Of a stretch of 64,000 nt of DNA, positions 5,206 through 51,848 are shown piece by piece (position 1 is the stretch's first letter; the number at the start of each line of letters is the position of its first letter). Under the pieces are notes generated by a model. It was not told the DNA's origin. It saw only the letters and a list, made by a program, of their open reading frames with translations, and made no database searches. Made by a program: the position numbers and the translations under genes. The stretch is from Tricharina praecox (Eukaryota), in NCBI RefSeq assembly GCF_024521635.1, contig NW_026250412.1:992001-1056000 (forward strand), in the 5' to 3' direction.

Positions 5206-6777
5206 ATCGCGCTATTTTCGGGCGGCAGAGCCTTCTTCGGAATTGGTGACTGACGAAAGAACAGGCGATTGGGTGATAGGATGCGAGTGAGTTTGGGGGC
5301 GACGTGGATGTTGCTGATGGTAGAGAACAAGTGGGTCTGAGTGTACGCGCTTGGACGTGAAATGTCGGGATGACATGAGCCTCAACGCTGGCCCGTCCGC
5401 AACCGGCTAGATTGCCAAAAGACCCATTGCTTACTAACGTTCACAGAGATCACTCGTCACTCCACTCATGTCGCCGGGATAAATTTTGTTATGTAACTGT
5501 TTAATGTGGGTAAACAGCGGCAAATTCGCTATTGAGATCTCGCGTTGGACACCTCCGACGAATCAGGGCGGTACTGAAATGACCTTCGGGCAATTACCTC
5601 AGTGAAATAACTATGAGCGGCGAGTACTTTCAAGGGCTTGAGGTACGCACTACGTGTGGCCTGTACCAATGGCAGAACTAGGCTGCGCAATCGCCTGGAG
5701 TTCATCTACTCATACCTATCACTCGGTTGACGAATAACAGTGCATTCATGGATGTACTAAAATGTAACTTCAAGTCATACCGTGGTGGTTACCAACGGCG
5801 AAAACAGAACCTTCACTATCTTCGATGGGTGCCATATAAGATCGCTCTAAGAAGTGAATATCAACCGTGGATGGTGATAGAATCATGGACCTAAACTCAT
5901 TGCCGTCCCCAAGCTCAACAAGCACCCGACCTGGAAATTGTGTTTCCTGACGGCATTGAGGACTGCCTTGTCCATGGAGCCACCATTATTTTCGGAGGGC
6001 CGCTGGGGCTGTGGTGAGACTTCCCAGGGAGCTTCTAGATCGTGGCAGATTAGAAAAACCGAAACGGACCTTAGAATCGGAGTTTTAACGGCTGATTCCG
6101 GAGTAAGTAAGGCCGAACTATTGATAGAGGCTTCACAGATCAGACGCGCTTTTATTACGAAAAGAGTCCTGCTACTCGGGAAAGGGCCATATCGCTACCC
6201 ATCACACATTTATCCTCTACTTTTTTTAATAGATTGTTCGTGCTCGGGTGAGCCGGGGGGGCTAAGCGTAGAGGCGAGGACACAGTGATGGCGGAGGCTA
6301 GAGGCTCGAGTCCAGTGAGGATGTGACTGCCGGCTGACTCGACTGCCCTGAGAGCGGAACCACCAGTGGACGTCAGGTATTCAGGATCTTTAGACTACAT
6401 TACAAAGTAGTCTGCACTGGAGGTTTCTCCGTGACATCCAATGTTCTTTCCCGCAACGTCATGAAGAGTACGGCTGGCGCTCTCGAAGTGCTTGGAGACA
6501 CCTTCTAGCAGCTTTTACTGCTGCATATTCATGTGTACATAGTCTCAGCACTGCTGATACCGAAGAGAGAGAGGCCTCAAATCCATTGACATCCATGTTG
6601 GGGAAGTAGGTAGCCTCCGATGGTGTTCACGCTGCCGGGGCGTCTACCATTCTCATTGTAAAAAGCGCCGGCATTGGGGTAGTCGTCGGGTCTTGTCTTG
6701 TGGAGGCGGGGCCGTTGGACCCGCTGGCAAGTAGCAGAGCGGAGGGGGTTTATGACGGTTGACACAAATCTTCACTC

Positions 6778-6899
6778 ACGGAAAAACCCCCCCGCGTAGC
6801 CTTGTCGGCTAGGCCACCGCCTCGGCGCTGAAAGCTCGTCGTTGAACTCCTGGGGAAGAGGGGTTTCCAAGCCACCCACCGGGGGTGGTGAAGGTTTTT
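6778..6899 (+). ncRNA. Family A putative Pol III structured RNA, copy A1
   Basis: ACGGAAAAACCCC...TAGCCTTGTCGG (A-box-like)...GTTGAACTCC (degenerate B-box)...GGGGTTTCCAAGCCACCCACCGGGGGTGGTGAAGGTTTTT; shared flanks extend ~6720-7005. Confidence 0.55.
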
Positions 6900-7297
6900 G
6901 TTCTTTTGCCGCTCCAGTTTTGCTCGCAGCCTGCATCTGATGTCACTCGGACGACGAGTGATTGTACATGCAGCAATCTTCCGAGTCGAGTCACGGTGAC
7001 GACAATGGGGTTTGCCTTCTTTGTTTACTATCACTTTATCTGTCTGGGCTATAGCTGGTGTATCTTCGATAAGGCAATGATGACGAAAATTGAGGCGTCT
7101 CGGCTGTGGCGTTGTGGATCTCGATCACTGCGCGCAGATGGCCCAGACTAGTAATTTCACGGTGAAGCTAACTGCCTGTCTGCAATGAAATAGTGGGCCG
7201 ACTCAAAGTCATCTCACTAGCAGAGCTATTTATTGTGGTAGACGTACATTCATTATCTCTTTGGCGGGCATTACAGACTCCCATCCCGATATCCTAG

Positions 7298-8467: not shown

Positions 8468-10193
8468 GTCGATATCGATCAATACAGTTTCGTATTGTGT
8501 AGATGGGGAAGCGGATACTTATCATTCCATATCTGCCGTCAATCCCGGATTCCCACATCCCGGATTCCCGTTTGAATCGTACCTTGTTCCTGGAAACCCC
8601 TCGCTATGAATTCCTCCGGCGGCTATGGGCGGAGAAATCCAGCGGGAGTGATGAGGAAGCTGTCTCGATTGACGTCGCTGCCGGCAAAATCCAACGGCTG
8701 TGCGCAAAAGAGCAAGCTTTGTGGCTTGCATGCGGTGGAAGATCGTTGAGAATGCAGGGGCCAACCCCGCGTTGTTATGCCTAAAGAACTCGACATGAGC
8801 CGGGGAAACGTGCGATCTGCACAACAATCATCCGACCCGGTGTATGGGGTATTAGCCGGCTTAGCGACCGCGAGAGTAAAGAAAACAACCGTGCATAGCA
8901 GATAACTTCCCCCTCCTATATCACGCCTCCGACTCGCCTCACCCCCATTCACCCAACCGACTGTGGGTGATACAAAACCTCGCGCTGTTGGGACTTATAT
9001 GGAGGCAAAGCAGATACGCAAGGCCTTCCTTGACACGCGTATGATAACTTCGATAATCAGGCTGGCAATATTCCGGGGACCGGGAATCCCCCACCGCGAT
9101 AGTAGAGGTTGGTAGAATCCTTCCTCTTTTATACGGAGTCTCCTCTCGACACGGTTCATGTAGCCCAGCTACCTAGCTTTTTGCCGGCGAAGAAGCCAGC
9201 ACGACACGCGTCGATAGAGTGGGGCATTACCCGTGTGAGATGACAAAACCAGGAATCGATTATCGCCCAGGCACCCACCCCGCATGGCGCTCCTGAAATT
9301 CATCACATCAATCTAAAAGGGAGCATTGCTGCCGCCAGCTCACGAACGCGGAAAGACTTCCTGTGCCATGGTCGATATGTGTGGAAACCGGGTATGGTTT
9401 GAAAAGGATTCCATGGATATGATATATTTTGGGGTTGGTGGTAGACGACATGAGAAAGGCGGTATTCCTCTCGGTAACTTTTGAGGATGCGCGACACTTT
9501 TGGCTGAAGTTTCTCGGTGAGGGAAGGGAAGTAAAGCAGGAAGCTGTTATCGTCAGCTCGGGAAGATTCTGGCTGTCACAATTGAGATTGTGGATGACAG
9601 GACGTGGTCTAGGACGATGCATGATGCGTGGGAGCTGTGACGGGAAAGTGAGATCCAGGCGGTATTTATCCATTTTTCATCACCAGTGGTGCGCCAACTG
9701 CTGCTGTTACGCTTCGCTAAGCAGCGGAGATACAGGAGCTCGGAGAGCTCAGAGTTATGCTGAGAAGAAAAATATTTCGTCATAGATTTGATTAATGGAT
9801 TTGCAGCGCGAATCGCATCGTGACCCGTTAAGTGCATAGAAAGTTTACATGGATTAGTTTGCTATTGTTTCATCATTGATTGCATGCGACATATCTAGAT
9901 TACGGCAATCTGTGTCCGCTCCCGGGATTGAGGTAGATATTCCGCATACAACCTTTCCAGACTACTCCCTCAATCGCTGATTTTTTTGTTTACTCAGTAA
10001 TTGCCTGCAATCGATGATGATCATGGCAATACATGTGCGCATTCCAGTTCCACGGCACTGTCCAACCCAACTTTCATCAAGCGGCTGTATCGTCACCGTG
10101 ACTTGACTCGCAAGATTAGTGCATGTCCGATCACTCGTATTCCGAGTGACATCGCATGCCGGCTGCTGGCAAAATTATTGCGGCAAAAAAATC

Positions 10194-10318
10194 AAAAACC
10201 TTCACCACCACCGGTGGGTGGCTTGGAAACACCCTCTTCTCCAGGGAGTCGAACGACGTGACTTCAGAGTCGAGGCGGTGGCCTAGCCGACAAGGCCACG
10301 CGGGGGGTTTTTTTCCGT
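10194..10318 (-). ncRNA. Family A, copy A2
   Basis: Reverse complement of the A consensus incl. B-box GTTCGACTCC; compensated CGAC/GTCG stem; TTATAA upstream at ~10341. Confidence 0.55.
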
Positions 10319-11391
10319 GAGTGAAGATTTGTGTCAACCCTTATAAACCCCTCTCCACCCCTCTCCCCGGCTCTATTACCAGCTGGGCTCAACGGCTCCG
10401 CCCCTCACCCAGTGATCTCCCTTCTACATACGTCACTCCTCTTTGATCGCAATGATGAAGAGTCGCAGCACCAAGAGTAACAGGTCTGCTAGTACTAACA
10501 TGCATACACCACCGTCAACACGGGACGTCGTGAGATAGCTACAAATGCATATAGGATTTGGACTACCATATTGCCGAGGATAGGTATTTTATGGCGATGG
10601 TCTGCCAGCGCTTCCAGGAAGCAGTATTTCTTTGAGGTGACTTCGGCGACGCACAGCTAAAGGCATAAACGCTGAGAAGCAACCAGCCCACATCTTATGC
10701 AGGGAAAACTCCTTGAAAACTCCTTGATGATGTCAGCGGAATACAAGGCAATACACTGCACCCAGTCCAAAAAAGCTCTTTTTTGAATTCGGTACCTAGC
10801 GTACTGGTGTTGACGAGTACTACAGTGTGCTGTCCTTACGACTACTGTGGGCTGTAGGCTATAAGTGCACTCACTACTCTACTGGTATGCCACGAAGTTC
10901 ATGCTCCTATTACTACCGGAGCTTGATGATGAGAGCCGGTTTTAATTAATCCCATGCACTTTGCTAAAACAAATGGTTTTTTTCTTCTTTCATCAATCGC
11001 GCGTAGCCTAACCTAAACTGTGGTGATGTACCCACATACAGGTCCAGTTTTTGTGTCTACGCTCGGTGAGGGAAAGGACTCCTGATTCATTGTGTTGCCC
11101 CCTCCCTTAGTTATTTCACCGGTAAGTAATTCTTCCGACCGTAGCATTCGTTGGAGAAAGAGAGAGAGATCTTTCTGCTTTATTTCGCATGCAGCCTATC
11201 TAGACTATGGCTAACCGTCGCACTGCTTTTCTGCCCACTCTGACTGGCCGGGGGTTAGGACCTCGTTACTAGCCAGCACGATGTGGCGCCGGTAGCATTC
11301 GTTAGGGGCGCTTACTGCATGTCCAATCACTCGCCGTCCGTGTAACAATGCATGTATGCCACCTGCAAAACCAATATTGCGACAAAAAATC

Positions 11392-11513
11392 AAAAACCTT
11401 CACCACCCCCGGTGGGTGGCTTGGAAACCCCTCATCCCCAGGGAGTCGAACGGCGAATTTTCAGCGCCGAGGCGGTGGACTAGCCGACAACGCCACGCGG
11501 GGGTTTTATCCGT
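11392..11513 (-). ncRNA. Family A, copy A3
   Basis: Near-consensus copy on the minus strand. Confidence 0.55.
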
Positions 11514-12437
11514 GAGTGAAGATTGGCGTCAAACCTCATAAACCCCTCCCGCTCTGCTACCAGCACGTGGACGGCTCCGTCCCCTACCCGGTGTTCTCCC
11601 CAAAGAGTAACAGCTATGCGGGCACCAACGCACACCATCGTTAACACAGGATATCCATTATGAGATAGCTTCAATTACAGGATATGGACTATTTCCTATA
11701 ATATCTTACAGCGATGGTCTACCAACGCTTCAAAGCCGGATTTTTGGAGGTAAGTTCAGCGGCGTTACGCGTACAGCTGAAGGGATAAACCTTCAGAGCC
11801 AGTCTACCCACTGTGTATGAAAGGAAAACTTCTTGATGAATGTCAGCGGATTACCAGGCAATACACTGCACCCAGTGCAAAAAGCCCGTTTTGGACTCGG
11901 TGGCGTACTGGTTTTGCCAGGGCTCGTTCGCCAATGCCTCTCCAGGATGGAAAGCGGCAAATGGAGAGATAGGGAACACACAAGGAGAAAGAGAAGAGAG
12001 TGGTTGATCGTCTATTCTGTAGATGTCATCGCCCCGCTACAGCGGTACTACTGTGGGCTGTAGGCTTTAGGTGCGCTCCGTACAGGCCTGTCAATACGTT
12101 CGTTACTCTTATTACTACCGAAGCGTGATGGGCATAGTCAATTTCACTTCATCCGAAGCATTGCTGAAACATATCCTTTTTTCTTCCTTCATCAATGCCG
12201 CACAGCCTATCTAAACTGTAGCGATGTATGTACACATACTAGTCCAATTTTCTTGTTTGCACCCGGTGAGAAATAAGGAATCATTACGGAGACCCCCCTG
12301 CCTAAGGTATATCACCGGTAGGTAATCCTTCCGATCGCAGCACCCCCTGTGGCGCCATATGACAATCAAATTATCGCACTCGACTACCGAGTGACATCAC
12401 ATGTATGCCATGCGCAAAACTAGAGCGGCAAAAGAAC

Positions 12438-12532
12438 AAAAACCTTCACCACCCCCGGTGGGGGGCTTGGAAACCCCTCTTCCCCAGGGGAGGCGGTGGC
12501 CTAGCTGACAAGGCGACGCGGGGTTTTTTCGT
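12438..12532 (-). ncRNA. Family A, copy A4 (internal deletion removing B-box; probable pseudo-copy)
   Basis: CCCCAGGG joins directly to GAGGCGGTGGCC; ~25 nt missing relative to A3. Confidence 0.4.
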
Positions 12533-12959
12533 CATTGAAGGTTGGCGTCAACCCTCATAAACCCCTCCCGCTCTGCTACTAGCCAGCGGGTCCCACTGAC
12601 GTCTCCTAATACACACTGCCGTATCGTAATTGGATCCGCGAGACATCCCTCCTTTCCCACTCATTAATATCGCGGATATCGCCCCACTTGTAATATCTCT
12701 CGTCTTATGTAATTTCATGTGAACGAACCTGAGCCAGCTTTCGGAAAGGTCTTTCCTCCTGGCCATGGGTGACAGAAATGACAGAAGTCAAAGGTTGTTG
12801 CTCTGGCCGCTGTGCGAGAGGATGCTATCGGCTTAATGGACTGCACTCTCATCCACGGCTGCCTCCCATGTCCCTGCCAGCACCTAGTCGCGGACCACAG
12901 CAACGGAGTTTTGCTGCACTGGTTGCTGCGCGAGAGAATCGCATTGATTTTACGGGCAT

Positions 12960-14178
12960 CTACAGTGGGTGGTTATGAGCCGTGACAGCGACTAGTTCAG
13001 CCGCCGGCACGCAAGGTACTTCAACCTGTCTCCAACGAGTGGCATGTCACGTTTGCTCGCTCGTTCCATCTGATGAGCAAGTTTTGGTGGGGCCCTGCTC
13101 GCGGGAAATTTACCCCGACTCCGGCGATTGGTGTCACGTTTTGGTGGGGTCTAGCGGTCTGGCGGCGGCGAAAATGCTTAGAACCTAGCGGCTCCTCAAT
13201 CACTTATAAAACCCCCCCTTCTGCTCCTCCTTCTCTCCTTCTCTTTACAACCGTCACAGCTTCCATTGAACGTCGAATATTCGCCTTCCTTCCCCCCATC
13301 CCTCCTACTTTTCCACCCTCCATCCCTCCTTCCTTTCCAGTCACTCCCCCTCCCTCCTTCATTCAACCTGAGCCCGAGCTCAATCCTCGAGGTACGTCAT
13401 TCTCTCTTCCCCACATTTTACTTCCAGGATAACCTTACAGAGCTATCCTGCTCAGCCGTAGTAGCGAGGAACTGAGGTCCGTGCAACCAGTCTACAAAGT
13501 AGACTGTTGCAGCACCAACAGACGGATCCAACCTTCGAGGCTGAGTAGAAAAGATCCGAGGACGGGGTTTTCTCTTCTGCTGCCGGCGAAGTTCTTTCCC
13601 CCTTCCGCCAGGATTCCAAGTCGGGTGAGAGCCGACTTGCTCCCCGTGGATGGCTTCTCCGAAACCGGGTGACAGACGGTTTCGTGTTGACGAGGAAGAA
13701 ATAAACTAAAAAAAGTATAACTTCCGAGTTCTACGCGTATAACCTGGTCTACTATCCCCCCACGTTGTACGCGGAGGTTTTCTTCCTTTGTTGTGAGAGA
13801 GAATTGAGCGAAGGTCTTTCCTCCAGGCCATGTGTGTCATGTGTGAGAGACATGCCACACGTATGGCCAAGGCCCACGCCTCCGAAACTGGGCTACAGAC
13901 GGTTTCGGACGAGCAAATAAATAACCAAAGAAGTATAACGTGGTCTACTACCGCCCCAAGTTATACGCGTATAACGTGGTTTACTATCCCCCCACGTTGT
14001 ACGCGGAGGTCTTCTTCCTTTCATAGCAAAGGTCTTACCTCCTGGCCATGCATGAGTGAGATGCATGCGCCATTAGCGAAATGTTGTTGCTCTGGCTGCT
14101 GTGCGAGAGGATGACATCGGCTTGTTAATCGACTGTGGACTTGTGGTCTGCACTCTCGATCCACAGCTGCCTCCCGTG
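12960..14178 (+). repeat. Family B long structured non-coding element, copy B1
   Basis: TATGAGCCGTGACAGCG...CTTATAAAACCCCCC, CT-rich tract, hairpin-rich body ending TCCACAGCTGCCTCCC; a fragment of the B 3' end also precedes it (~12745-12870). Confidence 0.85.
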
Positions 14179-14904
14179 CTTTAGCCACGGCGGCGGCTAA
14201 CATGTATTATGGTTTCCAAAACTCCATGTTCCATCAATCACCTCTCTTGAAACAACGTTTCTATCGCGTGCGGAACGCTGAATGCAAACGAATTCTTGTG
14301 ATACTGGTAGATGGTTCGATCGTGTCCGAGTGCTTTCCATGATTCGGACTAACGAGCCCTACTCGCGATACTCTAGACGCCTTGCCGCGCTAATACCCGA
14401 TCTACTACTACCTTATCAGGAACTTCTATCATAGTAGAGTACTAGTCGGCGGTGTCGACTGTGGTCAAGTCGTGCTCCTCGGCATGATGCGGCATGCCGA
14501 AGCCGTGCTGTGCCGCTGTTTAAACACATTCCGATACATATGGAGTGAGTAGCGAGCACAGGTCGGCAAGAGCATCGTTCGTTCCGGGCGTTCCCGGCTG
14601 TGTGCGTGTGCGGGTCCATCGCCGGATGGCTGGAGGGATGAATCCGGAGGCATTGATTGAACTTTATGTAGGTCCTGTATATAACAAGGAGGGTGAAATC
14701 TACTCTATTATACTGGCACCTCGCAGGTCTGTGCTTTAACGGGCCTACAGCGCAGTCGTAAAGCTTCACAGGTACTATGAGGTTGCTACTAGCTTGGAGG
14801 GTCGAGCTATCAAATGTGAAGGTATGCAGTCCGTAGTGGCACTGCTTCTGAGTGGCTGTTATGTGTTAGAACGTGCTCATAACCGCGCGCGGAAAATTTA
14901 CAGC

Positions 14905-15025
14905 ACGGAAAAAACCCCGCGTAGCCTTGTGGGCTAGGCTACCGCCCCGGCGCTGAAAGCTCGCTGTTCGACTCCCTGGGGAAGAGGGGTTTCCAAGCCA
15001 CCCACCGCGGGTGGTGAAGGTTTTT
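14905..15025 (+). ncRNA. Family A, copy A5
   Basis: Full copy; GTAGCCT/AGGCTAC compensated stem; B-box GTTCGACTCC; T5 terminator. Confidence 0.55.
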
Positions 15026-17168
15026 GGTTCGAGCCACGGTGAAGGTTTTGTTTTGTTTAATCATCATGGGATTTCGCCTTAGTAGATAGGTCATGGCAGA
15101 TTGCATGTCTGCTTCCACCCGGGTGTCACCGATATCTGGCCACGAGCTCTATGCGGGATCCACATTGCTCTCCGCCCAGCCCTACGCTCGAGCCAAACCT
15201 AAAATGTCGCATTCGATAGTTTACTGTTTACCCTTAGTCGGTGAAGCTACTCATGGCGGCGAAGCATCACCGCCATCACACACTCTCTCGCCAAGGACGC
15301 CACGACGCCACGACGCCAATCGCAGGCTACATCCGATGCTTATCGTCTCGCAACTCGAGTACATACCATTCATCTTCGAGCGCGAGTACGGTCCATCCCT
15401 GACGATAGACCACGGTAGACCGGGGTCGGGGGGGGCAGCACTCCTTTTCCGCTAGACTGGGGAGGTAGGCAGTTCCGTCCGTTCAATCGACCTCGCTGCG
15501 GAGCCCCGTGCCCCCAGAGTACAAGTGTGGGCGAATCCTACTCTATACAGAAGGTCGGAATGTCGACTGTGATGTGATTCGCGTGCTCGTTGGGTACCGA
15601 CCGGTTATGTCGTTAGCATATATCCGTCGCTTCGGCGATACCCTGTAGGGGTGTCTTAATCTCGGTGGTCTCCTACGACGTGGACTTGAGACACGACGTT
15701 AACTCTCGTCTTTCCATTTACTACATAGGGCAAAACGCGTGCACGACGAGGGTGGATTTCGGCCGCCTGCGTTTACGGAGTTTCGAGTACCGTAGATGGG
15801 ATGTAGATCACTTCATGTACAATATAATTGCTCAAGAGTAATAGAGTAGGGTTACTGTGGTGAATCGTTTGTCCGGGCGCCAGTCCAATTCTGTGGAGCG
15901 GGGCCGTCCCGTGCAGGTTCTCCAGAGGACTATGTACTTCCTACTAGGTTGTCCGTCCAATGCGGAGAAAAATTATTTAACGCCGAGAAACCTATTCGAT
16001 TTCACCAGGGAAGTTTGAGGACCCATAATGTAACGCCCAGATAGGTACCCTACGGGTACCCATCGGTACCTGATACCTAACATCAGCGTTCTGTGCTGAC
16101 TAAGTAGTCTTATAGACAACCGTGCAACCCACATGATCTTCCGACTCAATCGCATTCAACCCAGACGCAATGGTTTTCACACCGACACGATGCTGGTAAT
16201 ACGTCGGTACTCAACCTCATTGAAGTTAGACGATCTGGGATGATGTTGATCGACGGTCCGTACTAGAGTACTCTACGCGCAGACGCTCTGTAGCGGTGGT
16301 GCGGGGTAACCACTCTAGAAGGCAGCGCTAAGGATGCGCGCCTCGTTGGACGTCACATCACGTGGTCAGGAGGACCGCCGTCCGTCCAGTCCTCCACCAC
16401 ACCAGACCGGACTGTTTAGCGTCCCCTGAAGAAGCCAACCGGTCTAGGTAGCCAAGTACATATGCCGGACGTGGTAATCCCGCCCGGCTCAACTCAAATT
16501 CCCCAAGGTACCTACTTGGTTCAACGGTTGGTACCTATAAGGTACCGACAGGCCGCATGCAGCCCTCGGCGATGTAGATGCAATCACCGGGGTTCCGGTA
16601 AGAGTGCGAGTTCATGTCACGAATCCCGGCCCCCACCTTGCGCCCGGCTCTCTTTTTCTTTGGCTTTCTCATATTGTGCTTTGCATCCGGATTTTACTGG
16701 ACTTTTCCTTCTCCCGAGACATACACCGGGGGCGCAACTCAAAGTAAAAACCGACTATACAACGAAGGTTGCAGCCGTTCGAGACGATCTTGGGCATCGT
16801 TGAACCCGTCTTCTGTGTACCTTATACTTGTTCGCTTTCTAGATCTGCACTGTACAGTCTGTACTAATGTACTCAGGTTCTAACCCAGTGATACCGCACT
16901 CAGGTACCAGCCCAGCGATACCACTTTTCCACACGGCCGGACCGTCAAAGTGACCCATTCGTCTCATCCTGAAGATTTATCCCTCTTCATCCTCGGAACT
17001 CCCCCTTCGACACCGCTTCGTCTCTCTAATCTTCCAACTGCCTTCCGTACCTACACTTCGACACCCCCGCATTCCTCTTCTGCAACCTCACCATCCTCTA
17101 TTCATCACTCGTCCCATACGAAAAGCAAAATAGAATAATACAACCCTTTCAACACGCACAACGCAAAT

Positions 17169-18291
17169 ATGCTTCGGCTAACGATCGGCCTCTTTGCCCA
17201 GCCGTTTACAACTCTACCCCTTCCTCCCCATGGTACCTTCGCCCGCAAGACAGCTGTGGTTACCGGTGCAAACACCGGCATAGGACTTGAAACATCCCGC
17301 CACCTACTCGCTCTTGGCGCCCCTCGTGTTATCATCGGCGTCCGTAACGCAACTAAAGGGGAGGCCGCGAAAGTCTCCCTCCTCAAGACCCCCGGCATCT
17401 CGGCGGATGCGCAGGTGGAAGTCTGGGACCTCGATCAGAGCTCGTTCGCCTCGGTCAAGGCGTTTTGCGCGCGAGCTGCCGCTCTCGAGAAGATTGACTA
17501 CCTATTCCTCAACGCCGGTGTAATGAGCACGCACTTCAACACCACCGCTGACGGCTGGGAGGAGATTCTGCAAGTCAACGACCTCTCGACGACGCTGCTC
17601 GGGCTTCTCCTCCTCCCCAAACTAATCTTGCAGTCGCGCGCCGCCTCTGCCGCTGCCGGAAACTCCCTCGCGGACGCCGACCTTCCGCGCATGATAATCA
17701 CGACGTCGGGGATGCACGTAGTCGCGCCGTTCTTGGAGCGCAGCGCGCCGAACTGCCTTGCGGTGCTCAACGAGCGCAGCAACTTCGAAAAGAACCGCTT
17801 CGACCGCACAATCCAGTACCAGAACTCGAAGCTGTTGAACGTGTACATCACGCGCGCGCTCGCACGTCTCGTTCCGCACACAGACGGGAAGCCGCTGGTA
17901 ATCGTGGCCACGGTCGACCCTGGCCTGTGCAAGAGCACGCTTGGAAGAGCGGATACGCCTATCCCTACCCGCATCCTGAACAGGCTCACGGGGTACACGA
18001 ATGAGTACGGCAGCAGGAATCTCCTCATCGCAGCTGCGGGCGGGATCGAGGGCCAGGGAGGGTACTATACTTCTATGGGGAAGCTGGGATCGTGAGTTGC
18101 AGACTTGACTTGCGGTCGCGGATCGTGAAGGTTCCCAGCGCATTCGCTAACGTTGTGTGATATACAGGCCGGGTGGATTATCGGTTGGACCGGAGGGCCA
18201 GCTTCTCCAGGAGAAGGTCTGGACGGAGATTACTACGGTGCTTCGCGAGGTTGCGCCGGAGATTGGCCCGGTCGTTGACGGTAGCCTGTAG
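17169..18291 (+). CDS. short-chain dehydrogenase/reductase (retinol-dehydrogenase-like), 2 exons
   Basis: TGANTGIG, LNAGV, YQNSK catalytic YxxxK, VDPGLCKS; intron 18092-18167 (GTGAGT..CTAAC..CAG); exon 2 ends QEKVWTEI...SL-TAG at 18291. Confidence 0.9.
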
Positions 18292-19022: not shown

Positions 19023-19381
19023 CAGGGCTGTCAACCGTCCGTCCCATCCGTCTTTGAGGTTTCTCGACCCGGGGCGGAATAAGTCGCGTTGAGGAGACCA
19101 AGGACTACAGTCTTCCGGGCTGGAAGAATGAGGACCGATACCCTATAGGGCCCGGAATGGACTGGGACACTAGGACACTGCTAGTGGCGTGGCGCCACAC
19201 CGTGGCGCCGGTGTGCGCACGTGTGGCTGTGCGGCTGTATATCTCAGTGTCTCTCACGGTATAGAACTTTCACACAATCCTCCGGATGGAATGGATCAGT
19301 CCTCTGGAAAGCTTGCCCGGGACGGGACGGGCCTACGGTCCACTAGTGGACTGTAGTCCGGACAGACGGTTGACAGCCCTG
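19023..19381. mobile_element. hAT-like MITE, 359 bp
   Basis: TIRs CAGGGCTGTCAACCGTC.GTCC / GGAC.GACGGTTGACAGCCCTG; degenerate 8-bp TSD ATTTATAA / GTTGATAA (6/8). Confidence 0.8.
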
Positions 19382-19411
19382 GTTGATAAGGGTTGACACA
19401 AATCTTCAATC

Positions 19412-19532
19412 ACGGGAAAAACCCCCGCGTGGCCTTGTGGGCTGGCCACCGCCTCGGTGCTGAAAGCTCGCCGTTCGACTCACTGGGGCAGACGGGTTTT
19501 CAAGCCACCTACCACGGGTGGTGAAGATTTTT
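19412..19532 (+). ncRNA. Family A, copy A6
   Basis: Full, somewhat diverged copy; TGGCCTTGTGG and GTTCGACTCA boxes; T5 end. Confidence 0.5.
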
Positions 19533-20044
19533 GTGTTTTGATGCGACGGCGGAGCACTTGATGTCACTCGGATGCATCACGTGTGTTGCTTTTTCGCCGC
19601 CGGTGAGAAGAGAAGAGGAGAGACCCCGCCGTAATATCTTAAGTGATCAGTGAAGTACATAGTATGCCGATTGGCACCACCACTACACTGTACGTAACTC
19701 CGCTGAGTATTGCTGGTATCGTAAATTTAACGGCAAACGTCTAAAATGCCATGATGTTTTCGATATTTCAAACCCACTATCCCGCATACCCATTGTGGTA
19801 CGCGATGGAGGAGGTGTCGGTAAGAGTAGGATACGAAAGATGTGACCTATGGGTGTGAGGAAACGAATGTAGTCAGTGGTGCGCATCAACGTTGGTGGGC
19901 ATGGCGCCGGGGTTTCTTCTTCTTCTTCTATCTTGATGATCATCTACAGAATAGGTAGACGACCAATCTTCGTATCTCCCCTTTCTTCTGTGTGTGCTCT
20001 CCTATCCATCCTGGTTCCGGCCTGAAAGCGTGTTTGTACAAGAG

Positions 20045-21775
20045 CCGTCTGCAAAAGTACTGGGATAGATAGGAGAATTGGTAGGAAGATAGAAGTATTT
20101 GGTTGCTTGCTTTTTCTTCTTCTCCGAGCCGGTGACCTTCTATATATACATACTATGTCTGCTCTCGGAAGATAGACCCGCCGGCTACACCAGACTGCAG
20201 AACATATATCCTCTTCCGGATACAGTTTGCATGGCTGTCTCTTCTTTGACTCCTTCACAAAATGTTCCTTAAAACTCACCATCGCCAGCTGCCTTACAGC
20301 GAACATTAGGAGAGATCCTTCATGTGCTCCAGATGCCGTAATATGGCAGACGTTGTGTATGAGCACCTGCAGTGGGCGGTTATACGCCATGACAGCGACT
20401 AGGTAGTTGAGCTGCTGGCGCGCGAGGTGACTTCAACAACCACCACTCCCCAGCGAGTGGCGCGTCAGGTGCTATTGTCGCTTGTTTCATCTGATGAGCA
20501 AGTTTTGGTGGGGTCTAGCGGTCTGGCGGGACAGTTCGACCCGTCTCCGACGATTGGCGTCACATTTGCTCGCTCGTTTCACAGGATGAGCAAGTTTTGG
20601 TGGGGTCTAGCGGTCTGGCGGGACAGTTCGACCCGTCTCCGACGATTGGCGTCACATTTGCTCGCTCGTTTCACAGGATGAGCAGGTTTTGGTGGGGTCT
20701 AGCCGTCTGGCGGCGGCAAAATACTTGGAACCTAGCGGCTCCTAAATCACTTATCAAACCCCCCCCCTTCTGCTCCCCCTTCTCTCCTTCTCTTTACAAC
20801 TGTTACAGCTTCCATTCTTCGTCAACTATTCGCCTTCCTTCCACTCATTCTTCCTTCCTTCCTTCCTTCCTTCCACCTGAGCCCGAGCTCAATCCTCGAG
20901 GTACGTATTTCTCTGTCTTCCCCACTTTTTACTTCCAGGACTATCCTGCTCAGCCGTAGCAGCGAAGAACTGAGGGGTCCGTGCAACCTCTACATAGTAG
21001 GCTGTTGCAGCACCAATAGACGAATCCAACCTTCGAGGCTGAGCAGAAAAGATCCGAGGACGGGGTTTTCTCTTCTGCTGCCGACGAAGTTCTTTCCCCC
21101 ATCCTCCGGGAGTCCAAGTCGGTCAAGACTCGACTTGCCGACTTGCTCCCGGTGGATGGCCTCTCCGAAACCGGGTGACAGACGGTTTCGTGTTGACGAG
21201 GAAGAAAAAAACAAAGAAATTATAACTTCCGAGTTATACGCGTATATCGTGGTCTACTATCCACCCAGGTTACCTGTCCGCAGAGGTTTTCTTCCTTTGT
21301 TGTGAGAGAGAATTGAGCAAAGGTCTTTCCTCCAGGCCATGCGTGTCATGTGTGAGAGACATGCCACATGCGTGGCCAAGGCTCATGCCTCCGAAACCGG
21401 GCTACAGACGGTTTCGGACGAGCAGATAAATAACCAAAGAAGTATAACGTGGTCTACTACCGCCCCAAGTTATACGCGTCTAACGTGGTTTACTATCCCC
21501 CCACGTTGTACACGGAGGTCTTCTTCCTTTCATAGCAAAGGTCTTAACTCCTGGCCATGCATGAGAAGCATGCATGCGCCATTGGCTAAATGTTGTTGCT
21601 CTGGCCGATGTGCGAGACGATCACATCGGCTTCTTAATCGACTGCGGACTACACTCTGGATCCATGGCTGCTTCCCGATGTCTCCATGGTTCTTGGCTGT
21701 CAAATATACTGAGATCGATAGGACGATAGGTAGGACGATGTGACTATTCTGTTGCTTCCTTCTTCGTCTCATCGT
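20045..21775 (+). repeat. Family B, copy B2 (modules X-Y-Z-core-X)
   Basis: Collinear with B1/B3/B4; the ~75-nt X block (..GATCGATAGGA.GATAGGTAGGA.GATG..GTTGCTT..) occurs at both ends (~20045-20120, ~21697-21770). Confidence 0.85.
20493..20712 (+). repeat. 92-bp tandem repeat (2 copies identical by eye + partial third) inside B2
   Basis: GATGAGCA(A/G)GTTTTGGTGGGGTCTAGC.. starts at 20493, 20585, 20677. Confidence 0.9.
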
Positions 21776-21861
21776 TGTGTTGCGCATCCTTTGGACCCCG
21801 CTGGTAGGCAGCAGAGCGGAGGCGGCTGGCGGTTTATAGCGGTTGATAGAAATTTTCACTC

Positions 21862-21982
21862 ACGGAAAACATCCCCGCGTGGCCTTGTCGGCTGGCCACC
21901 GCCTCGGCGCTGAAAGCTCGTCGTTCGACTCCCTGGGGAAGAGGGGTTTCCAAGCCACCCACCGGGAGTGGTGAAGGTTTTT
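21862..21982 (+). ncRNA. Family A, copy A7
   Basis: Full copy, TTTATAG ~28 nt upstream, B-box GTTCGACTCC, T5 end. Confidence 0.55.
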
Positions 21983-38916: not shown

Positions 38917-39027
38917 ACGGAAAAAACCCCGTGTGGCCTTGTGGTCACGCACCCGGCGGAGTTAGCATGGACAACGGTCCATCTATCGGGGTTTCCAAGC
39001 CACCCACCGGGGGTGGTGACGGTTTTT
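38917..39027 (+). ncRNA. Family A, copy A13 (alternative interior)
   Basis: Outer stem and 3' hairpin are consensus, flanks match A5, interior is different. Confidence 0.5.
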
Positions 39028-39207
39028 GGTTCGAGCCACAGTTCGGTTTTTTTTTTTGTTTAATCATCATGGCCTTCGGCCTTAGCAGGTCATGGCAGAT
39101 TAGATGTCTTTTTCCAGCCGGCTGTCACCGACCTCTGGCAGCGAGCTGGATACCAGTTTCCTGTTGCTCGCCGCCCAGCCCTTCCCTCGAGTCAAACCTA
39201 CCCGCTT

Positions 39208-40258
39208 ACCGCTCTGTCAAATATACTAGGATCGATAGGAGGATAAGTAGGAAGATGTAACTGTTTTTTCTATGAGCCGTGACAGCGAATAGTTCAGCCG
39301 CCGGCGCGCGAGGTGACTTCGACCCCGTCTCCGACGATTGGAGTCAGGTCTGCTCGCTCGTTTCGCCGGACGAGCAAGTTTTTGTGGGGTCTAGCCCTTG
39401 GCGGCAAAAACTCGCTTGGAACCTGGCGGCTCCTAAATCACTTATAAAACCCCCCATTCTACTCCTCCTTCTCTTCTTCTCTTTACAACCATCACAGCTT
39501 CCATTCTTCCTCGACTACTCTCCTTTCTTCCTTCCTTCCTTCCCCCCATCCTGCCTTCCTTCCCACATTCCTTTCCTTCCTTCCCTCCCTTCCTTCCACC
39601 TAATCTTGAGATCAACCCTCAGGTACGTCGTTCTCTGTCCCCCGCTTTTTACTTCCAGGATAACCTTACAGGGCTATCCTGCTCAGCCGGAGTAGCGAGG
39701 AACTGAGGGATCCGTGCAACCGGTCTACAAAGTAGACTATTGCAAGAGACGGATCCAACCCTCGAGGCTGAGCAGAAAAGATCCAAGGACGGGGTTTTCT
39801 CTTCTGCTGCCGGCGAAGTTCTTTCCCCCTTCCGCCAGGATTCCAAGTCGGGTGAGAGCCGACTTGCTCCCGGTGGATGGCTTCTCCGAAACCGGGTAAC
39901 AGACGGTTTCGTGTTGACGAGGAAGAAATAAACTAAAAAAAGTATAACTTCCGAGTTCTACGCGTATAACCTGGTCTACTATCCCCCCACGTTGTACGCG
40001 GAGGTCTTCTTCCTTTCATAGCAAAGGTCTTACCTCCTGGCCATGCATGAGTGAGATGCATGCGCCATTAGCGAAATGTTGTTGCTCTGGCTGCTGTGCG
40101 AGACGATGACATTGGCTTCTTGATTGACTGCGGTCTACACTCTCGATGCACGGCTGCTTCCCGGCGTCTCCCTGTTTCTTGGCTATCAAAGATACTAAGA
40201 TCGGTAGGAGGATAGGTGGGACGATGTGGCTGTTTTGTTGCTTCCTTCTTCGTCTACT
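39208..40258 (+). repeat. Family B, copy B4 (X-Z-core-X; single internal unit)
   Basis: X block at ~39208-39270 and ~40183-40258; lacks one ~220-nt internal repeat unit. Confidence 0.85.
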
Positions 40259-40267
40259 ACGGGTTAG

Positions 40268-42755: not shown

Positions 42756-43603
42756 GTTTTTTGCATCATGGGTTAAGCACGGAATATCACTCGATAGCAG
42801 TCATCACCTGACATGCTTTGTGATGGCGGCTCCTTTATAGTTTAATCATCATTGCATTCAACCTTGGTAGATCATGGCAGATTACACATCCGTTTCCACT
42901 CGGTCTCTGGCACCGACCGCTGGCTGGAAGCTCGATACTGGTTCCCTATTGCTCTCCGCTCAACCCTCTCCGCTCCGTGCGCTGCAAAAGGAGTCCGTCC
43001 CGTCTATGGGTCCGGACGGACTGGACTTAACTGGACTGGGCTATGTATGTAGAAAACTGCTTTCGCGATGATAAAACGCTAGAGACCTCTAGCTCTTTAC
43101 GGGGCTTTCATCAAAACATTGACCTCAGCCGATGCTGGACTTCCCCGAGGCGTGTAATCTGGAGGTGTCAAATTGTTAGTACCCTTCCATATATACAGAA
43201 TATGTCTGCCATTAGGAGACAGACCCGACAGCGATACCAGACAGCCGAACACATCTCCTCCTCCAGATACAGTTCGCATGGCCGAGTCGTTGACTCCTTC
43301 AGAATAGTGCTCCTTGAAATTCACCACCACCTTACAGCGGTTATGAGGAGAGATCCCCCATGTGCTCCGTACGGCGTAATCTGACATACTCAACCCGCCC
43401 CGCGAGGTTCATCCGTTGCCAACCACGGAACCAAGAACTCGCCGTGATCGTGGTTTTTACGAGTCGATGGCTTGGTGTGCGTTCCGGCTCGGTTCCATGG
43501 TTCATCTAGGTACTATGGCTTTGTCTGCTGGCAGGTTTGAGGCGTCTAAGTGAGTATCAGGTGCGTAGCTACATGTTATCATCGGAATCAACATTCTTCT
43601 TGT

Positions 43604-43714
43604 ACGGAAAAAAAACCCCTGCGTGGTAGGCCACCACCCAGCGCACGGAGCTCCCGGTCCGACTTCAGGGGGAGAGGGGTTTCCAAGCCACCCACCGGGG
43701 GTGGTGAAGGTTTT
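43604..43714 (+). ncRNA. Family A, copy A15 (shortened/diverged interior)
   Basis: ACGGAAAAAAAACCCCT...AGGGGTTTCCAAGCCACCCACCGGGGGTGGTGAAGGTTTT. Confidence 0.45.
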
Positions 43715-49844: not shown

Positions 49845-51014
49845 CGGATCATATGAAGGATCTCTCCTCATAACCGCTGTAAGGTGATAGTGAAGTTTTA
49901 AGGAGCACTGTTCGGAAGGAGTCAACGAGTCGGTCATGCGAGCAGTATGATGAGTCCGGAGGAGGAGATGTGTTCTGCTGTCAAGTCTCGTTGTCGGGTC
50001 TACCGGTATCTCACAATGGCAGCCATATTCTGGATATATAGAAGGGCACCGGCTCGTAGTAGACGAAGAAGGAAGCAACAACATGGTCACAACTTCCTAC
50101 CTATCCTCCTATCGATCTCAGTATATTTGACAGCCAAGAACCAGGGAGACGCCGGGAAGCAGCCATGGATTGAGAGTGCACCCCGCAGTCAATTAAGAAG
50201 CCGATATCGCCCTCTCGCACAGCGGCCAGAGCAACAACATTTGGCCGATGGTGCAAGCATGCTTCTCATGCATGGCCGGAGGAAAGACCTTTACTCTGAA
50301 AGGAAGACGACCTCCGCGTATAATGTGGGGGGTTCGTAAACCACGTTATACGCGTATATCTTGGGACGGTAGTAGACCAAGTTATACTTCTTTGGTTATT
50401 TATGTACTCGTCCTAAACCGTCTGTAGCCCGGTTTCGGAGGCATGTAGTGGGCCTTGGCCATGCATGTGGCATATCTCTCACACAAGCGCATGCATGGCC
50501 AGGAGGAAAGACCTTTGCTCAATGCTCTCTCACAGCAAGGGAAGAAAACCTCAGCGCATAACGTGGGGGTTAATAAACCACGATACACGCGTACAACTCG
50601 GAAGTTATACTTTCTTTATTTTTTTCTTCCCCATCAACACGAACCCGGCTGTCACCCGGTTTCGGAGAGGCCATCCACCGACTGGGAGCAAGTCGGCTGT
50701 CACCCGACTTGGACTCCCAGAGGAAGGGGAAAAGAACTTGTGCCGGTAGCAGAAGAGAAAACCCCGTTCAAGTTGGATCTTTTCTACTCAGCCTCGAGGG
50801 TTGGGTCCGTCTATTCGTGCTGCAACAGTCTACTTTGTAGACAGGTTGCACGGATCCTCAGTTCCTCGCTGCTACGGCTGGGCAGGATGGCTCTGTGAGG
50901 TTATCCTGGAAGTAAAAAGTGTGGCGGGAGAGAGAAAAACTTACCTCGAGGTTTGATCTCGAGATCAAGTGGAAGGAAGGAAGGAAGGGAGGAAGAAATG
51001 GGAAGGAAGGAAGG
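49845..51014 (-). repeat. Family B, copy B5 (core-X-Y), 5' part interrupted by a TA-MITE
   Basis: Reverse complement of the B body, then X (~50140-50060) and Y (~50060-49845); a diverged CTATAAAACCCCCC block lies at ~51284-51297. Confidence 0.85.
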
Positions 51015-51016
51015 TA

Positions 51017-51114
51017 CTGTATAGTGAAGGGGAGGGTAAAAAATACGCTTTGTGGGCGTACCGTATCGGTACGGCCACAAAGCGTATTTTTTACCCCCCC
51101 CCTTCACTATACAG
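51017..51114. mobile_element. TA-TSD MITE, copy 3, 98 bp
   Basis: Same TIRs; TA at 51015-51016 and 51115-51116. Confidence 0.85.
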
Positions 51115-51848
51115 TAGCGTTACTGCCAGTACCCCTATTGTCGATATCGGACCGTGGAAAATAATTAAACTAGGTAATCTAAGTCGGTAGCATGAATCAC
51201 TAATTAGTATCAGACGGGAAAGAAGGAGAAGAAGTTAATGAGTGGAGGGAGGAAGGAGAAAGAGAGGAAGAGTTGGGAGGAAAGGGGGGTTTTATAGGTG
51301 AAGCGGGTGGAATTCTAAGCAACCACTTCTAGCGCAGTAGCCGCGACTCAAAAGTTTGTTGTGCAGAAATCACCACTACATTCCAAGGTGTTGACAGATG
51401 TTTGACATCACACGAAGTCATTCCAGCTCCGAGTGAGTCATTATGAACACATTCCCATAGCTAGGAATAGCGACAAACCCGCAAACAATTACATACTTAC
51501 TGATTAAACAAAAAAAGAATAGCGACAAACGTGAGATGGTGGCGACCAAGTTTGTTACTTTCCATACGCAGCTCTCCCACGAGCAGGCGTGTGCAATTTG
51601 ATGCTGCCACACCAGCCAACCTAAATAGACACACCGAGATGACAGTTGGGCGGGGGTTGCACGAGGAAGCTCCATGTATTCGCACTTGGAAGCAATAAAT
51701 AAACCAAAAAAGAGAGCGTCAACGAGGGAATGGTGATAGTTACTTCAATTGAATAGAAACAGACCGGCAAGGGTTGTTACAACTCACTATCCGCGACATA
51801 ACCCACTCCCAGGTAGAAGTACTTACTCACTTAGCTATGGGAGGATCT

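What the first reader, a model, noticed from the sequence alone, without database searches (positions are those of the whole stretch)
12960..14178. Family B: TATA-led, ~750-nt densely base-paired non-coding element present five times
Seen in B1 and in B2-B5. CTTATAAAACCCCCC and a CT-rich leader are followed by continuous stems: CTGCTCAGCC (13448)/GGCTGAGTAG (13539) enclosing GCAAC-CAGTCTAC-AAA-GTAGACTG-TTGC; CAAGTCGG/CCGACTTG (13617-13639); CGAAACCG/CGGTTTCG (13660-13684); GTATAAC/GTTATAC and GCGTATAAC/GTTGTACGC; GGCCATG.../...ATGGCC. The last stem covaries: GGCCATGTGTG/CACGTATGGCC (B1), GGCCATGCGTG/CATGCGTGGCC (B2), GGCCATGCATG/CGTGCATGGCC (B3), perfect in B5. All pairs are WC or G-U on the TATA-sense strand. 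In B2 the CAAGTCGG hairpin gains an inserted CAAG..CTTG extension that preserves pairing. No ORF is conserved across copies. Inference: a Pol II-transcribed structured lncRNA, or the RNA form of a non-autonomous mobile element.
Basis: partly seen in the sequence, partly recalled or inferred. Interest (0 to 1): 0.82.

Follow-up and report, generated by a model that had tools for sequence, protein, structure and literature searches.

The report
Palindrome-rich non-coding repeat, likely retroelement relic
The five "Family B" copies are real and full of hairpin-forming palindromes, but they behave like decaying copies of a non-coding mobile repeat in a soil cup fungus, not like a conserved structured RNA gene.

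Summary
Five copies of a ~1.2-kb non-coding element exist, 78-85% identical by BLAST and 87-94% on gap-free core columns. Each has a TATA/C-run, a CT-rich leader and a ~750-nt body that is mostly palindromes. All five bodies fold far better than dinucleotide shuffles, but on both strands (z -4.4 to -13).

The covariation claim fails:
- Double changes and covariation score match shuffle controls.
- In strand-neutral stems, G-U (25) and A-C (22) departures are balanced.
- Substitutions are strand-symmetric (C>T 36, G>A 38).
- Rfam gives no hit, and no ORF is conserved.

The units sit head to tail, separated by a ~330-bp module (T'+X) that has its own TATATATA box. Direct T' repeats bracket B2 and B4. 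B starts with GGTTATGAGCC, an 11-nt complement of the initiator tRNA-Met anticodon loop. This is the primer-site type reported for Ty5 and fungal Copia/TRIM elements. A purine tract follows each B tail.

Best reading: relics of a non-autonomous LTR-type retroelement, arranged in tandem arrays in a repeat-rich, gene-poor island of a Pezizales fungus (Tricharina-like). No target-site duplications or clean LTR ends were found. Transcription could not be tested. Interest is low to moderate.

The parts
12951..14176 (+). B1, the copy named in the finding (head, TATA, CT leader, hairpin body, tail)
   Evidence: blastn; alignment A1
12971..12981 (+). GGTTATGAGCC, an 11-nt complement of the initiator tRNA-Met anticodon stem-loop (candidate primer-binding site). 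The same 11-mer is at 29686-29696 (B3). B2 has 2 mismatches at 20378-20388. B4 keeps only TATGAGCC at its 5' junction.
   Evidence: yeast Met-tRNAi northern probe in PMC11230868 ends ...CAGGGTTATGAGCCC
13020..13165 (+). Upstream sub-repeats (~50-90 bp unit: 2 copies in B1, 3 in B2 at 20478-20713, 1 in B3 and B4)
13203..13218 (+). CTTATAAAACCCCCCC, a TATA-like box plus C-run
13219..13390 (+). CT-rich leader with a variable (CCTT)n tract; its length differs between copies
13425..14176 (+). Hairpin-dense body. About 200 Watson-Crick pairs in the 739-nt consensus. Includes two tandem ~220-bp units of five hairpins each (13657-13879 and 13880-14068).
14177..14441 (+). Z, an alternative 3' continuation shared only by B1 and B3 (30840-31110)
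   Evidence: 13135-14441 vs 29793-31110
12745..12870 (+). Remnant of a B tail (like 14028-14178) lying upstream of B1, i.e. in head-to-tail arrangement
20049..20351 (+). T'+X module upstream of B2. T' holds the purine tract at 20068-20089. X has a TATATATA box.
20363..21677 (+). B2
21698..21769 (+). T' downstream of B2 (purine tract 21717-21738). It ends where a family A repeat begins.
29460..29659 (+). X module upstream of B3 (89% identical to the one upstream of B2)
29666..30839 (+). B3
39215..39270 (+). Partial T' upstream of B4 (purine tract 39234-39255), joined directly to TATGAGCC of the B4 head; X is absent
39271..40163 (+). B4 (has one internal unit instead of two)
40184..40261 (+). 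T' downstream of B4 (purine tract 40203-40224). It ends within about 3 nt of the place where B2's 3' T' ends, and the flanks beyond are unrelated.
43155..43389 (+). Isolated T'(deleted)+X copy preceded by a degenerate B-tail remnant; contains GGTTATGAG at 43339
49845..50132 (-). T'+X module downstream of B5 (purine tract 50113-50092; GGTTATGAG at 49875-49867)
50153..51014 (-). B5 body and tail
51117..51300 (-). B5 TATA/C-run (51298-51283) and CT leader, cut off from the body by the palindromic insertion at 51015-51116

Best explanation
Family B is a set of old, neutrally decaying copies of a non-coding, non-autonomous mobile repeat. Most likely B is the ~1.3-kb internal domain of an LTR-type retroelement of the TRIM/LARD kind. 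In this model the unit is: terminal direct repeat (T', possibly T'+X, with its own TATATATA box), then a primer site of the tRNA-iMet anticodon-loop type, then B, then a purine tract, then the repeat again. RNA made from such a unit would be copied in trans by an autonomous Copia-type element and re-inserted. Unequal recombination would then give the head-to-tail arrays seen here.

The dense hairpins are palindromes inherited from the ancestral element. They may have served as packaging or dimerisation structure in its RNA. They are not maintained in the present copies.

Shown: the repeat family; the palindromes; the absence of coding, covariation and strand bias; the head-to-tail order; the flanking direct repeats; the motifs.

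Inferred: retrotransposition, the primer, the helper element, and any role for the hairpins.

The confidence given (0.5) is for the LTR-type retroelement reading. The broader statement, that these are decaying copies of a non-coding repeat and not RNA genes, I hold at about 0.85.
For: 1. Multi-copy and diverged.
- There are five copies in 40 kb with a star-like spread of identities, 86.8-94.1% on 548-798 gap-free core columns.
- Short contigs in four public runs carry several different variants at the same positions, including the B2-type arm duplication.

2. Neutral, strand-symmetric decay.
- Substitutions: C>T 36, G>A 38; 117 transitions and 68 transversions.
- Stem departures: G-U 25 against A-C 22.
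- Pairs with both columns variable: 3 observed against 2.7 expected.

3. No conserved ORF, and no Pfam family for ORFs inside B.

4. Head-to-tail order.
- B tail then T' in B2, B4 and B5.
- T'+X then B head in B2; X then B head in B3.
- B-tail remnants lie upstream of B1 and of the 43-kb T'+X copy.

5. Direct repeats and shared boundaries.
- T' repeats bracket B2 (20049-20140 and 21698-21769) and B4 (39215-39270 and 40184-40261).
- The two 3' T' copies stop within about 3 nt of each other, with unrelated flanks beyond.

6. Candidate primer site.
- GGTTATGAGCC sits at the start of B. It is exact in B1 and B3 and has 2 mismatches in B2.
- It is complementary to the anticodon loop region of yeast initiator tRNA, according to the probe sequence in PMC11230868.
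- Passages of PMC10886601 state that most fungal Helenus TRIMs, and fungal Copia families, use primer sites complementary to the tRNA anticodon loop, tRNA-iMet among them.
- A Ty5 primer site of this kind is described in 10.1101/2025.04.25.647736.

7. A purine tract, GATAGGAGGATAGGTAGGAAGA, follows the B tail in 3 of 3 copies that keep that region. It also lies in both upstream T' copies.

8. Precedent. Tandem LTR-internal-LTR arrays and strong predicted RNA folds are described for the non-autonomous LTR elements Cassandra (PMC7215508 passages) and Wukong (PMC4528315 abstract).

9. Context. The neighbourhood holds another short non-coding repeat (family A) with a TGGTAGCAGAGC motif, also in ~1.1-kb tandem spacing.
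Against: - No target-site duplication was found at the ends of B2, B4 or the 43-kb copy (read by eye).
- The LTR ends could not be fixed. Every T'+X copy is preceded by B tail, so no clean junction with unique DNA exists in the window.
- The purine tract lies 15-40 nt inside T', not directly before an independently defined LTR start.
- B2's 5' T' is only about 75% identical to its own 3' T'. By contrast, the 3' T' copies of different units are 89-91% alike. This is not what the two LTRs of a single insertion should show.
- The primer-site match is 11 nt against a yeast tRNA. The species' own tRNA was not available (0 tRNA genes in the window).
- GGTTATGAG with up to 1 mismatch is not enriched in the window: 14 matches against 12.75 expected. 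The exact copies are homologous rather than independent.
- A similar motif occurs in sense orientation in a family A variant (14874-14884 and 38886-38896, minus-strand matches). The B motif could therefore be a borrowed fragment.
- B carries its own TATA box and leader inside the supposed internal domain, which a simple LTR model does not need.
- No reverse transcriptase, integrase or gag remnant was found among 133 ORFs of 90 aa or more between 8.5 and 52 kb.
- B1 and B3 share the B|Z junction, which points to DNA-level duplication for at least that pair.
Confidence: 0.5

Rival explanations
1. B is another class of transposable-element relic. It could be a long solo LTR of an autonomous retrotransposon (U3 sub-repeats, TATA, long R-U5). 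Or it could be a non-autonomous rolling-circle or other DNA element that tends to insert in tandem.
For: - Sub-repeats upstream of a TATA box resemble an LTR U3 region.
- The family is multi-copy.
- Units are arranged in tandem.
- Palindromes are common in transposon ends.
Against: - No terminal inverted repeats: 6 inverted-repeat pairs were found in 12600-14600 and none is terminal.
- If B were the LTR, the sequence after B's end and before B's start should carry the primer site and the purine tract. In fact they lie the other way round.
- About 950 nt downstream of the TATA box is long for R-U5.
- No Helitron-type ends were seen by eye; this was not formally tested.
- No transposase or RT remnant is nearby.
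Confidence: 0.2
2. B is not mobile. It would be a palindrome-rich intergenic or promoter-like module, spread locally by segmental and tandem duplication and homogenised in patches by gene conversion.
For: - Four of five copies have the same orientation within 40 kb.
- B1 and B3 share the B|Z junction; B2 and B3 share X at 89% while their bodies are less alike.
- The flanks are mosaic.
- The palindromes (CCG...CGG, GCATGC-type) could be protein-binding sites.
Against: - Sequence between the copies is not shared apart from other small repeats.
- Small sequencing runs of one organism hold several diverged variants assembled at depth, which suggests many copies genome-wide.
- Two independent ends coincide at the end of T'.
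Confidence: 0.13
3. B encodes a functional, Pol II-transcribed structured long non-coding RNA family.
For: - A TATA box and CT-rich leader are conserved in 5 of 5 copies, with 0-2 mismatches.
- A GTACGT/GTAAGT...CAG segment after the leader looks like a short intron.
- Folding z is -7.1 for B1 sense.
- Helix 17 (GGCCATG...) keeps all 44 cells paired on the sense strand.
Against: - Covariation is at control level and the alifold covariation term is positive.
- The antisense strand folds as well.
- G-U 25 against A-C 22 in strand-neutral stems.
- There are many indels, including loss of a whole 220-nt unit in B4 and a mutated TATA in B2.
- Rfam gives no hit in 3 E-value scans and 1 whole-window scan.
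- The candidate intron is only 36 nt and has no clear branch site.
Confidence: 0.07
4. B is the DNA copy of a retrozyme- or viroid-like highly structured RNA replicon (tandem units, rod-like or branched fold).
For: - Head-to-tail units.
- Very strong folding.
- A CTGATGAG motif in the B1 head.
Against: - CTGATGAG is not conserved: B2 has GGATGAG, B3 has TAACCAG, B4 has GGACGAG.
- No hammerhead or other ribozyme family appears in Rfam at E up to 1.
- Flanking helices for a hammerhead cannot be drawn.
Confidence: 0.03

Closest known systems
TRIM / LARD non-autonomous LTR retrotransposons (e.g. Cassandra, Wukong, fungal Helenus)
   Same: - Non-coding internal domain.
- Flanking direct repeats.
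- Tandem LTR-internal-LTR arrays.
- Strongly folding RNA.
- A primer-site motif of the tRNA-iMet anticodon-loop type, as reported for fungal Helenus and Copia (PMC10886601 passages).
- A purine tract near the 3' repeat.
   Different: - Size lies between the two classes. The unit is about 1.7 kb, whereas TRIMs are under 1 kb according to PMC10886601.
- No target-site duplication was found and no clean TG...CA ends could be defined.
- The 5' and 3' repeats of one unit are less alike than repeats of different units.
- The internal domain has its own TATA box and CT leader.
- No tRNA- or 5S-like part was found in the repeats (Rfam and ARAGORN both negative).
Ty5 / copia-type priming by a half initiator tRNA-Met
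   Same: An 11-nt complement of the initiator tRNA anticodon stem-loop lies at the 5' end of the presumed internal domain.
   Different: - No coding element is present.
- The motif lies about 30 nt from the nearest candidate repeat end, or about 8 nt for a degenerate second copy.
- The motif recurs in X.
- The Ty5 paper itself (Ke et al. 1999) was not held. I saw only its citation in the reference list of PMC10886601.
Foldback / MITE-like palindromic repeats
   Same: Dense inverted repeats, non-coding, multi-copy.
   Different: B has many short local hairpins (8-13-bp stems) in series, not one long terminal inverted repeat. No terminal inverted repeats were found.
Retrozymes (non-autonomous LTR elements with hammerhead ribozymes)
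   Same: Non-coding, structured, tandem or LTR-bounded units.
   Different: No ribozyme is present: Rfam is negative and the CUGAUGA-like motif is not conserved.

Membership tests
Non-autonomous LTR retrotransposon (TRIM/LARD) | Two terminal direct repeats (LTRs) flanking an internal domain | tested here: inconclusive
   T' repeats flank B2 and B4, and T'+X lies between head-to-tail units. However, B2's own pair is only about 75% identical, and arrays blur which part is the LTR.
Non-autonomous LTR retrotransposon (TRIM/LARD) | LTR ends TG...CA | tested here: inconclusive
   T' starts with TGTCA and X ends with TGGCA or TGACA. No junction with unique DNA defines these ends.
Non-autonomous LTR retrotransposon (TRIM/LARD) | Primer-binding site complementary to a tRNA just inside the 5' LTR | tested here: inconclusive
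   GGTTATGAGCC is exact in B1 and B3, has 2 mismatches in B2 and is truncated in B4. It matches the complement of the yeast tRNAi anticodon loop region. The species' own tRNA was not available.
Non-autonomous LTR retrotransposon (TRIM/LARD) | Polypurine tract just upstream of the 3' LTR | tested here: inconclusive
   A 22-nt purine-rich tract is present in all 5 T' copies, but it lies 15-40 nt after the start of T'.
Non-autonomous LTR retrotransposon (TRIM/LARD) | 4-6-bp target-site duplication | tested here: not met
   No matching 5-mers flank B2, B4 or the 43-kb copy (sequences, read by eye). The copies are old and their ends uncertain.
Non-autonomous LTR retrotransposon (TRIM/LARD) | No coding capacity | tested here: met
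   Frame-breaking indels between copies. ORFs inside B have no Pfam family.
Non-autonomous LTR retrotransposon (TRIM/LARD) | An autonomous partner sharing LTR or primer site | not testable with these tools
   No genome is held for the window. No RT or integrase was found among 133 ORFs in 8.5-52 kb.
Conserved structured RNA (Rfam-type family / lncRNA) | Compensatory base changes above background | tested here: not met
   4 pairs against a shuffle mean of 3.1 (179 of 500 reach it); 3 against 2.7 expected. Only 4-5 sequences were available.
Conserved structured RNA (Rfam-type family / lncRNA) | Structure specific to the transcribed strand | tested here: not met
   both strands fold equally well. 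G-U 25 against A-C 22.
Conserved structured RNA (Rfam-type family / lncRNA) | Discrete sense transcript | not testable with these tools
   No run on record as RNA was available to lay.
Hammerhead ribozyme / retrozyme | Conserved catalytic core (CUGAUGA...GAAA) with three helices | tested here: not met
   No Rfam hit at E up to 1. The motif is present in B1 only.
TIR DNA transposon / MITE | Terminal inverted repeats | tested here: not met
   none of the 6 inverted-repeat pairs is terminal.
Helitron | 5' TC and 3' CTRR ends with a subterminal hairpin, inserted in AT | not tested
   Looked for by eye only at the T' and B boundaries; nothing obvious.

The most novel reading that the evidence does not exclude
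The ancestral B RNA was a functional, almost fully base-paired non-coding domain: about ten consecutive hairpins, 54% or more of its nucleotides in Watson-Crick pairs. It would have been carried by a fungal retroelement lineage that is so far undescribed. Possible roles are a modular packaging or dimerisation array, a hairpin cluster feeding the host small-RNA machinery, or a tandem-forming, viroid-like RNA without a known ribozyme. Active master copies might still exist elsewhere in the genome.
Probability: 0.1. Interest if true: 0.55.

Novelty: new member of a known kind. Interest (0 to 1): 0.25.

Why it matters
Mainly as a caution. Palindrome-rich transposon relics can look like covarying structured RNAs when only a few copies are read by eye, most of all when the copy read most closely (B1) happens to carry mostly G-U departures.

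If the retroelement reading holds, it adds a non-coding LTR-type family to the Pezizales. That family would have a half-tRNA-iMet primer site and an unusually hairpin-dense internal domain. TE content in this group is studied mostly in truffles. Such a family would be useful for repeat annotation and for asking what RNA structure non-autonomous elements need in order to be packaged.

Tried and rejected
- Whole-genome search: no genome is held for the window.
- Expression: the look-up of sequencing runs listed 8 holders in 3 studies, and no RNA holder was listed. This says nothing about expression. In read laying no joint was seen at the candidate intron 13391-13426. All laid runs are contigs and none is on record as RNA (X6 is only guessed to be RNA), so this is uninformative too. 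Parts of 12700-14700 without cover are also uninformative.
- Related copies elsewhere: two pattern scans of metagenome contigs found 0 stretches.
I did not repeat it. I listed 220 ORFs of 60-89 aa but did not scan them, so short degenerate RT or gag remnants may have been missed.
- Hammerhead idea from CTGATGAG in B1: rejected, because the motif is not conserved and Rfam is negative.
- TIR search: none found.
- Flank comparison after the B2 and B4 3' ends: unrelated (score 31 against control scores of 21-28).
- Upstream of B2, B3 and the 43-kb copy against the B tail: only weak, gappy similarity.
- tRNA genes in the window for a species-specific primer test: 0 found.
- Ke et al. 1999 (Ty5 primer): not held.
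- Family A as tRNA-like: no Rfam or ARAGORN support.
- Supplements of PMC10886601 (the primer-site figures and consensus sequences of fungal Helenus) could not be seen and might bear on membership.
- No search of Repbase or Dfam was possible, so 'not a known family' is untested.
Full report
WHAT IS THERE

The window is eukaryotic. Pfam finds Swc3, aldose 1-epimerase, a short-chain dehydrogenase, SGT1, DUF726 and coatomer beta in its long ORFs. The coatomer ORF is 99% identical to a protein that NCBI names from Tricharina praecox, and the next hits are other Pezizales. No whole genome is held for the window.

Between about 8.5 and 52 kb the window is gene-poor. Of 133 ORFs of 90 aa or more, only the epoxide-hydrolase-like ORF reaches a Pfam cut-off; one other has a weak DUF6399 hit below its cut-off. 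None is a reverse transcriptase, integrase, gag or transposase. The dehydrogenase in the same stretch was found.

This stretch is full of short repeats. They include family B, a ~250-bp family A with at least 12 copies, and a 102-bp perfect palindrome present twice.

THE OBSERVATION

Five B copies are real:
- B1 12951-14176
- B2 20363-21677
- B3 29666-30839
- B4 39271-40163
- B5 51014-50153, minus strand

BLAST identities are 78-85%. On gap-free aligned core columns they are 86.8-94.1%.

The TATA/C-run motif is present in all five copies with 0-2 mismatches. B2's box has become TATCAAA. B5's box is separated from its body by the palindromic insertion at 51015-51116.

B4 has one internal ~220-bp unit where the others have two (13657-13879 and 13880-14068 in B1, 71% alike).

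The body is strongly self-complementary. B1 13400-14180 folds at -298.6 kcal/mol, against -239.6 +/- 8.3 for shuffles (z -7.1).

STRUCTURE: REAL, BUT A PROPERTY OF THE DNA

- The reverse complement of B1 folds at -289.1 (z -4.8).
- For all five copies both strands beat 15 dinucleotide shuffles by z -4.4 to -13.0. The sense strand is better in B1, B2 and B4 by energy; the antisense strand is better in B3 and B5.
- A majority consensus of the body folds to -298.6 (sense) and -289.8 (antisense). With Watson-Crick pairs only it folds to -269.9 and -270.8, with 200 pairs common to both strands in 739 nt.
- So the ancestor was a chain of near-perfect palindromes, and the fold does not identify a transcribed strand.

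COVARIATION: NOT SUPPORTED

- RNAalifold on B1, B2, B3 and B5 (B4 was left out because of its deletion) predicts 216 pairs. Four have a double change, and the covariation term is +2.06.
- In the count of structure pairs, pairs with a change on both sides number 4 against a shuffle mean of 3.1 (179 of 500 shuffles reach it). The covariation score is 0.092 against 0.087 (75 of 500). Cells paired are 95.9% against 95.7% (82 of 500).
- Among pairs predicted on both strands, 3 have both columns variable, against 2.7 expected.
Across the five copies there are 25 G-U, 22 A-C (which would be G-U on the other strand) and 29 other mismatches (p 0.77). B3 shows 6 to 8 and B5 shows 7 to 8.
It is one of 29 helices and was chosen after the fact.
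- Substitutions are strand-symmetric (C>T 36, G>A 38), with 117 transitions and 68 transversions. This is as expected for unconstrained decay.
- The B2 'extension' of the CAAGTCGG hairpin reads as a duplication of the 3' arm. The same variant occurs in a contig of run X4.

NOT A KNOWN RNA, NOT CODING

- Rfam gives nothing at gathering thresholds over the whole window.
- It also gives nothing at E up to 1 over B1 and B2 with their flanks.
- A CTGATGAG in the B1 head is not conserved in the other copies, so a hammerhead is excluded.
- Indels of 1, 2, 4, 5 and 8 nt separate the copies.

ANATOMY AROUND B

The tail of B is followed by a shared segment T' in B2, B4 and B5. T' reads TGTCAAATATAC..., then a 22-nt purine-rich tract, then ...CTTCGTCTACTACG. 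In B5 this continues into X, which is about 240 bp and has a TATATATA box.

T'+X also lies directly upstream of the B2 head. X lies upstream of the B3 head, and a partial T' lies upstream of B4.

Remnants of a B tail lie upstream of B1 (12745-12870) and upstream of an isolated T'+X at about 43155-43389.

The units are therefore arranged head to tail...B-T'-X-B... B2 and B4 are each bracketed by T' copies. Their 3' T' copies stop within about 3 nt of each other, with unrelated sequence beyond. B1 and B3 instead share another continuation, Z (14177-14441 and 30840-31110). That pair must have been duplicated as DNA.

A PRIMER-SITE-LIKE MOTIF

B begins with GGTTATGAGCC. It is exact in B1 (12971) and B3 (29686), has two mismatches in B2, and B4's junction starts at TATGAGCC.

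The same 11 letters stand in a northern probe that PMC11230868 describes as specific for yeast initiator Met-tRNA (passages). [quoted passage not shown]

Three papers bear on this:
- Passages of PMC10886601 state that most fungal Helenus TRIMs and several fungal Copia families have primer sites complementary to the tRNA anticodon loop, tRNA-iMet among them, and that they make 5-bp duplications.
- A passage of 10.1101/2025.04.25.647736 describes the Ty5 primer site as complementary to the initiator tRNA half molecule.
- The original Ty5 paper was not held.

Weaker copies of the motif stand at the T'/X junction (TACGAGCC), near the end of X (GGTTATGAG in two of four X copies) and at the X/B junction (GTATGAGCAC).

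CAVEATS ON THE MOTIF AND THE MODEL

- The match is short and is against a yeast tRNA. With one mismatch allowed, the 9-mer is not enriched in the window (14 against 12.75 expected).
- The exact copies are homologous, not independent.
- A family A variant carries the same letters in the opposite sense (14874-14884 and 38886-38896).
- No target-site duplications were found.
- B2's two T' copies are only about 75% alike, while 3' T' copies of different units are 89-91% alike.

OTHER EVIDENCE

Public runs: contigs identical to B1 (13360-13692, 13982-14110, 14258-14408) stand in a soil-metagenome run. Three very small runs of one coded organism hold several diverged B variants at the same positions. 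This fits a family with many genomic copies.

Precedent: tandem LTR-internal-LTR arrays and strongly folding transcripts are described for the non-autonomous LTR elements Cassandra (PMC7215508 passages) and Wukong (PMC4528315 abstract).

VERDICT

Family B is a genuine, palindrome-rich, non-coding repeat. The evidence for a conserved, strand-specific RNA structure does not hold up.

The best-supported reading is a relic of a non-autonomous, LTR-type retroelement arranged in arrays, at about even odds for this specific class. The broader statement, that these are decaying copies of a non-coding repeat rather than RNA genes, is much more secure. Other TE classes and purely local duplication remain open.

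It is a new member of a known kind in a little-studied fungal order. It is interesting chiefly for the unusual hairpin density of the ancestral sequence.

Noticed in passing
window 6707-7002, 10090-10356, 11312-11560, 12377-12596, 14904-15029, 19381-19568, 21788-22018, 28348-28611, 28718-29000, 31574-31800, 43604-43714: Family A, a ~250-bp non-coding repeat in both orientations. Its conserved block starts with CTGGTAGCAGAGCGG, which has one mismatch to the plant tRNA-iMet primer site TGGTATCAGAGC quoted in PMC7215508. It ends in a T-run. Three copies at 10.1-12.6 kb are spaced about 1.1-1.2 kb apart and their spacers are also alike, which looks like a tandem LTR/internal-type array. It gave no Rfam or ARAGORN hit.
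   Followed up: partly
window 14871-15201, 38883-39200, 42716-42967: A longer variant of family A. It begins with CTCATAACC, the sense form of the initiator-tRNA anticodon loop motif. It carries GGTTCGAGCC and a long T-run. One copy abuts the T' upstream of B4.
   Followed up: partly
window 51015-51116 and 34440-34536: A 102-bp perfect palindrome (foldback or MITE-like) present twice. One copy is inserted in the CT leader of B5.
   Followed up: no
window 8500-52000: A gene-poor, repeat-rich island of about 43 kb. Only a short-chain dehydrogenase (17139-18095) and an epoxide-hydrolase-like ORF (about 44901-45440) have clear Pfam matches. It is flanked by ordinary housekeeping genes.
   Followed up: partly
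window 10340-10355, 11535-11550, 12554-12569 vs 13203-13218: The B TATA/C-run (CTTATAAAACCCCCCC) resembles, with 3 mismatches, the reverse complement of the GGGGTTTATAAG block of family A. The two families may share a promoter-like module.
   Followed up: no
window 20478-20713: The ~92-bp sub-repeat upstream of the B2 TATA is present three times (20478-20621 against 20570-20713, 96% identical). This is much younger than the divergence between B copies.
   Followed up: no
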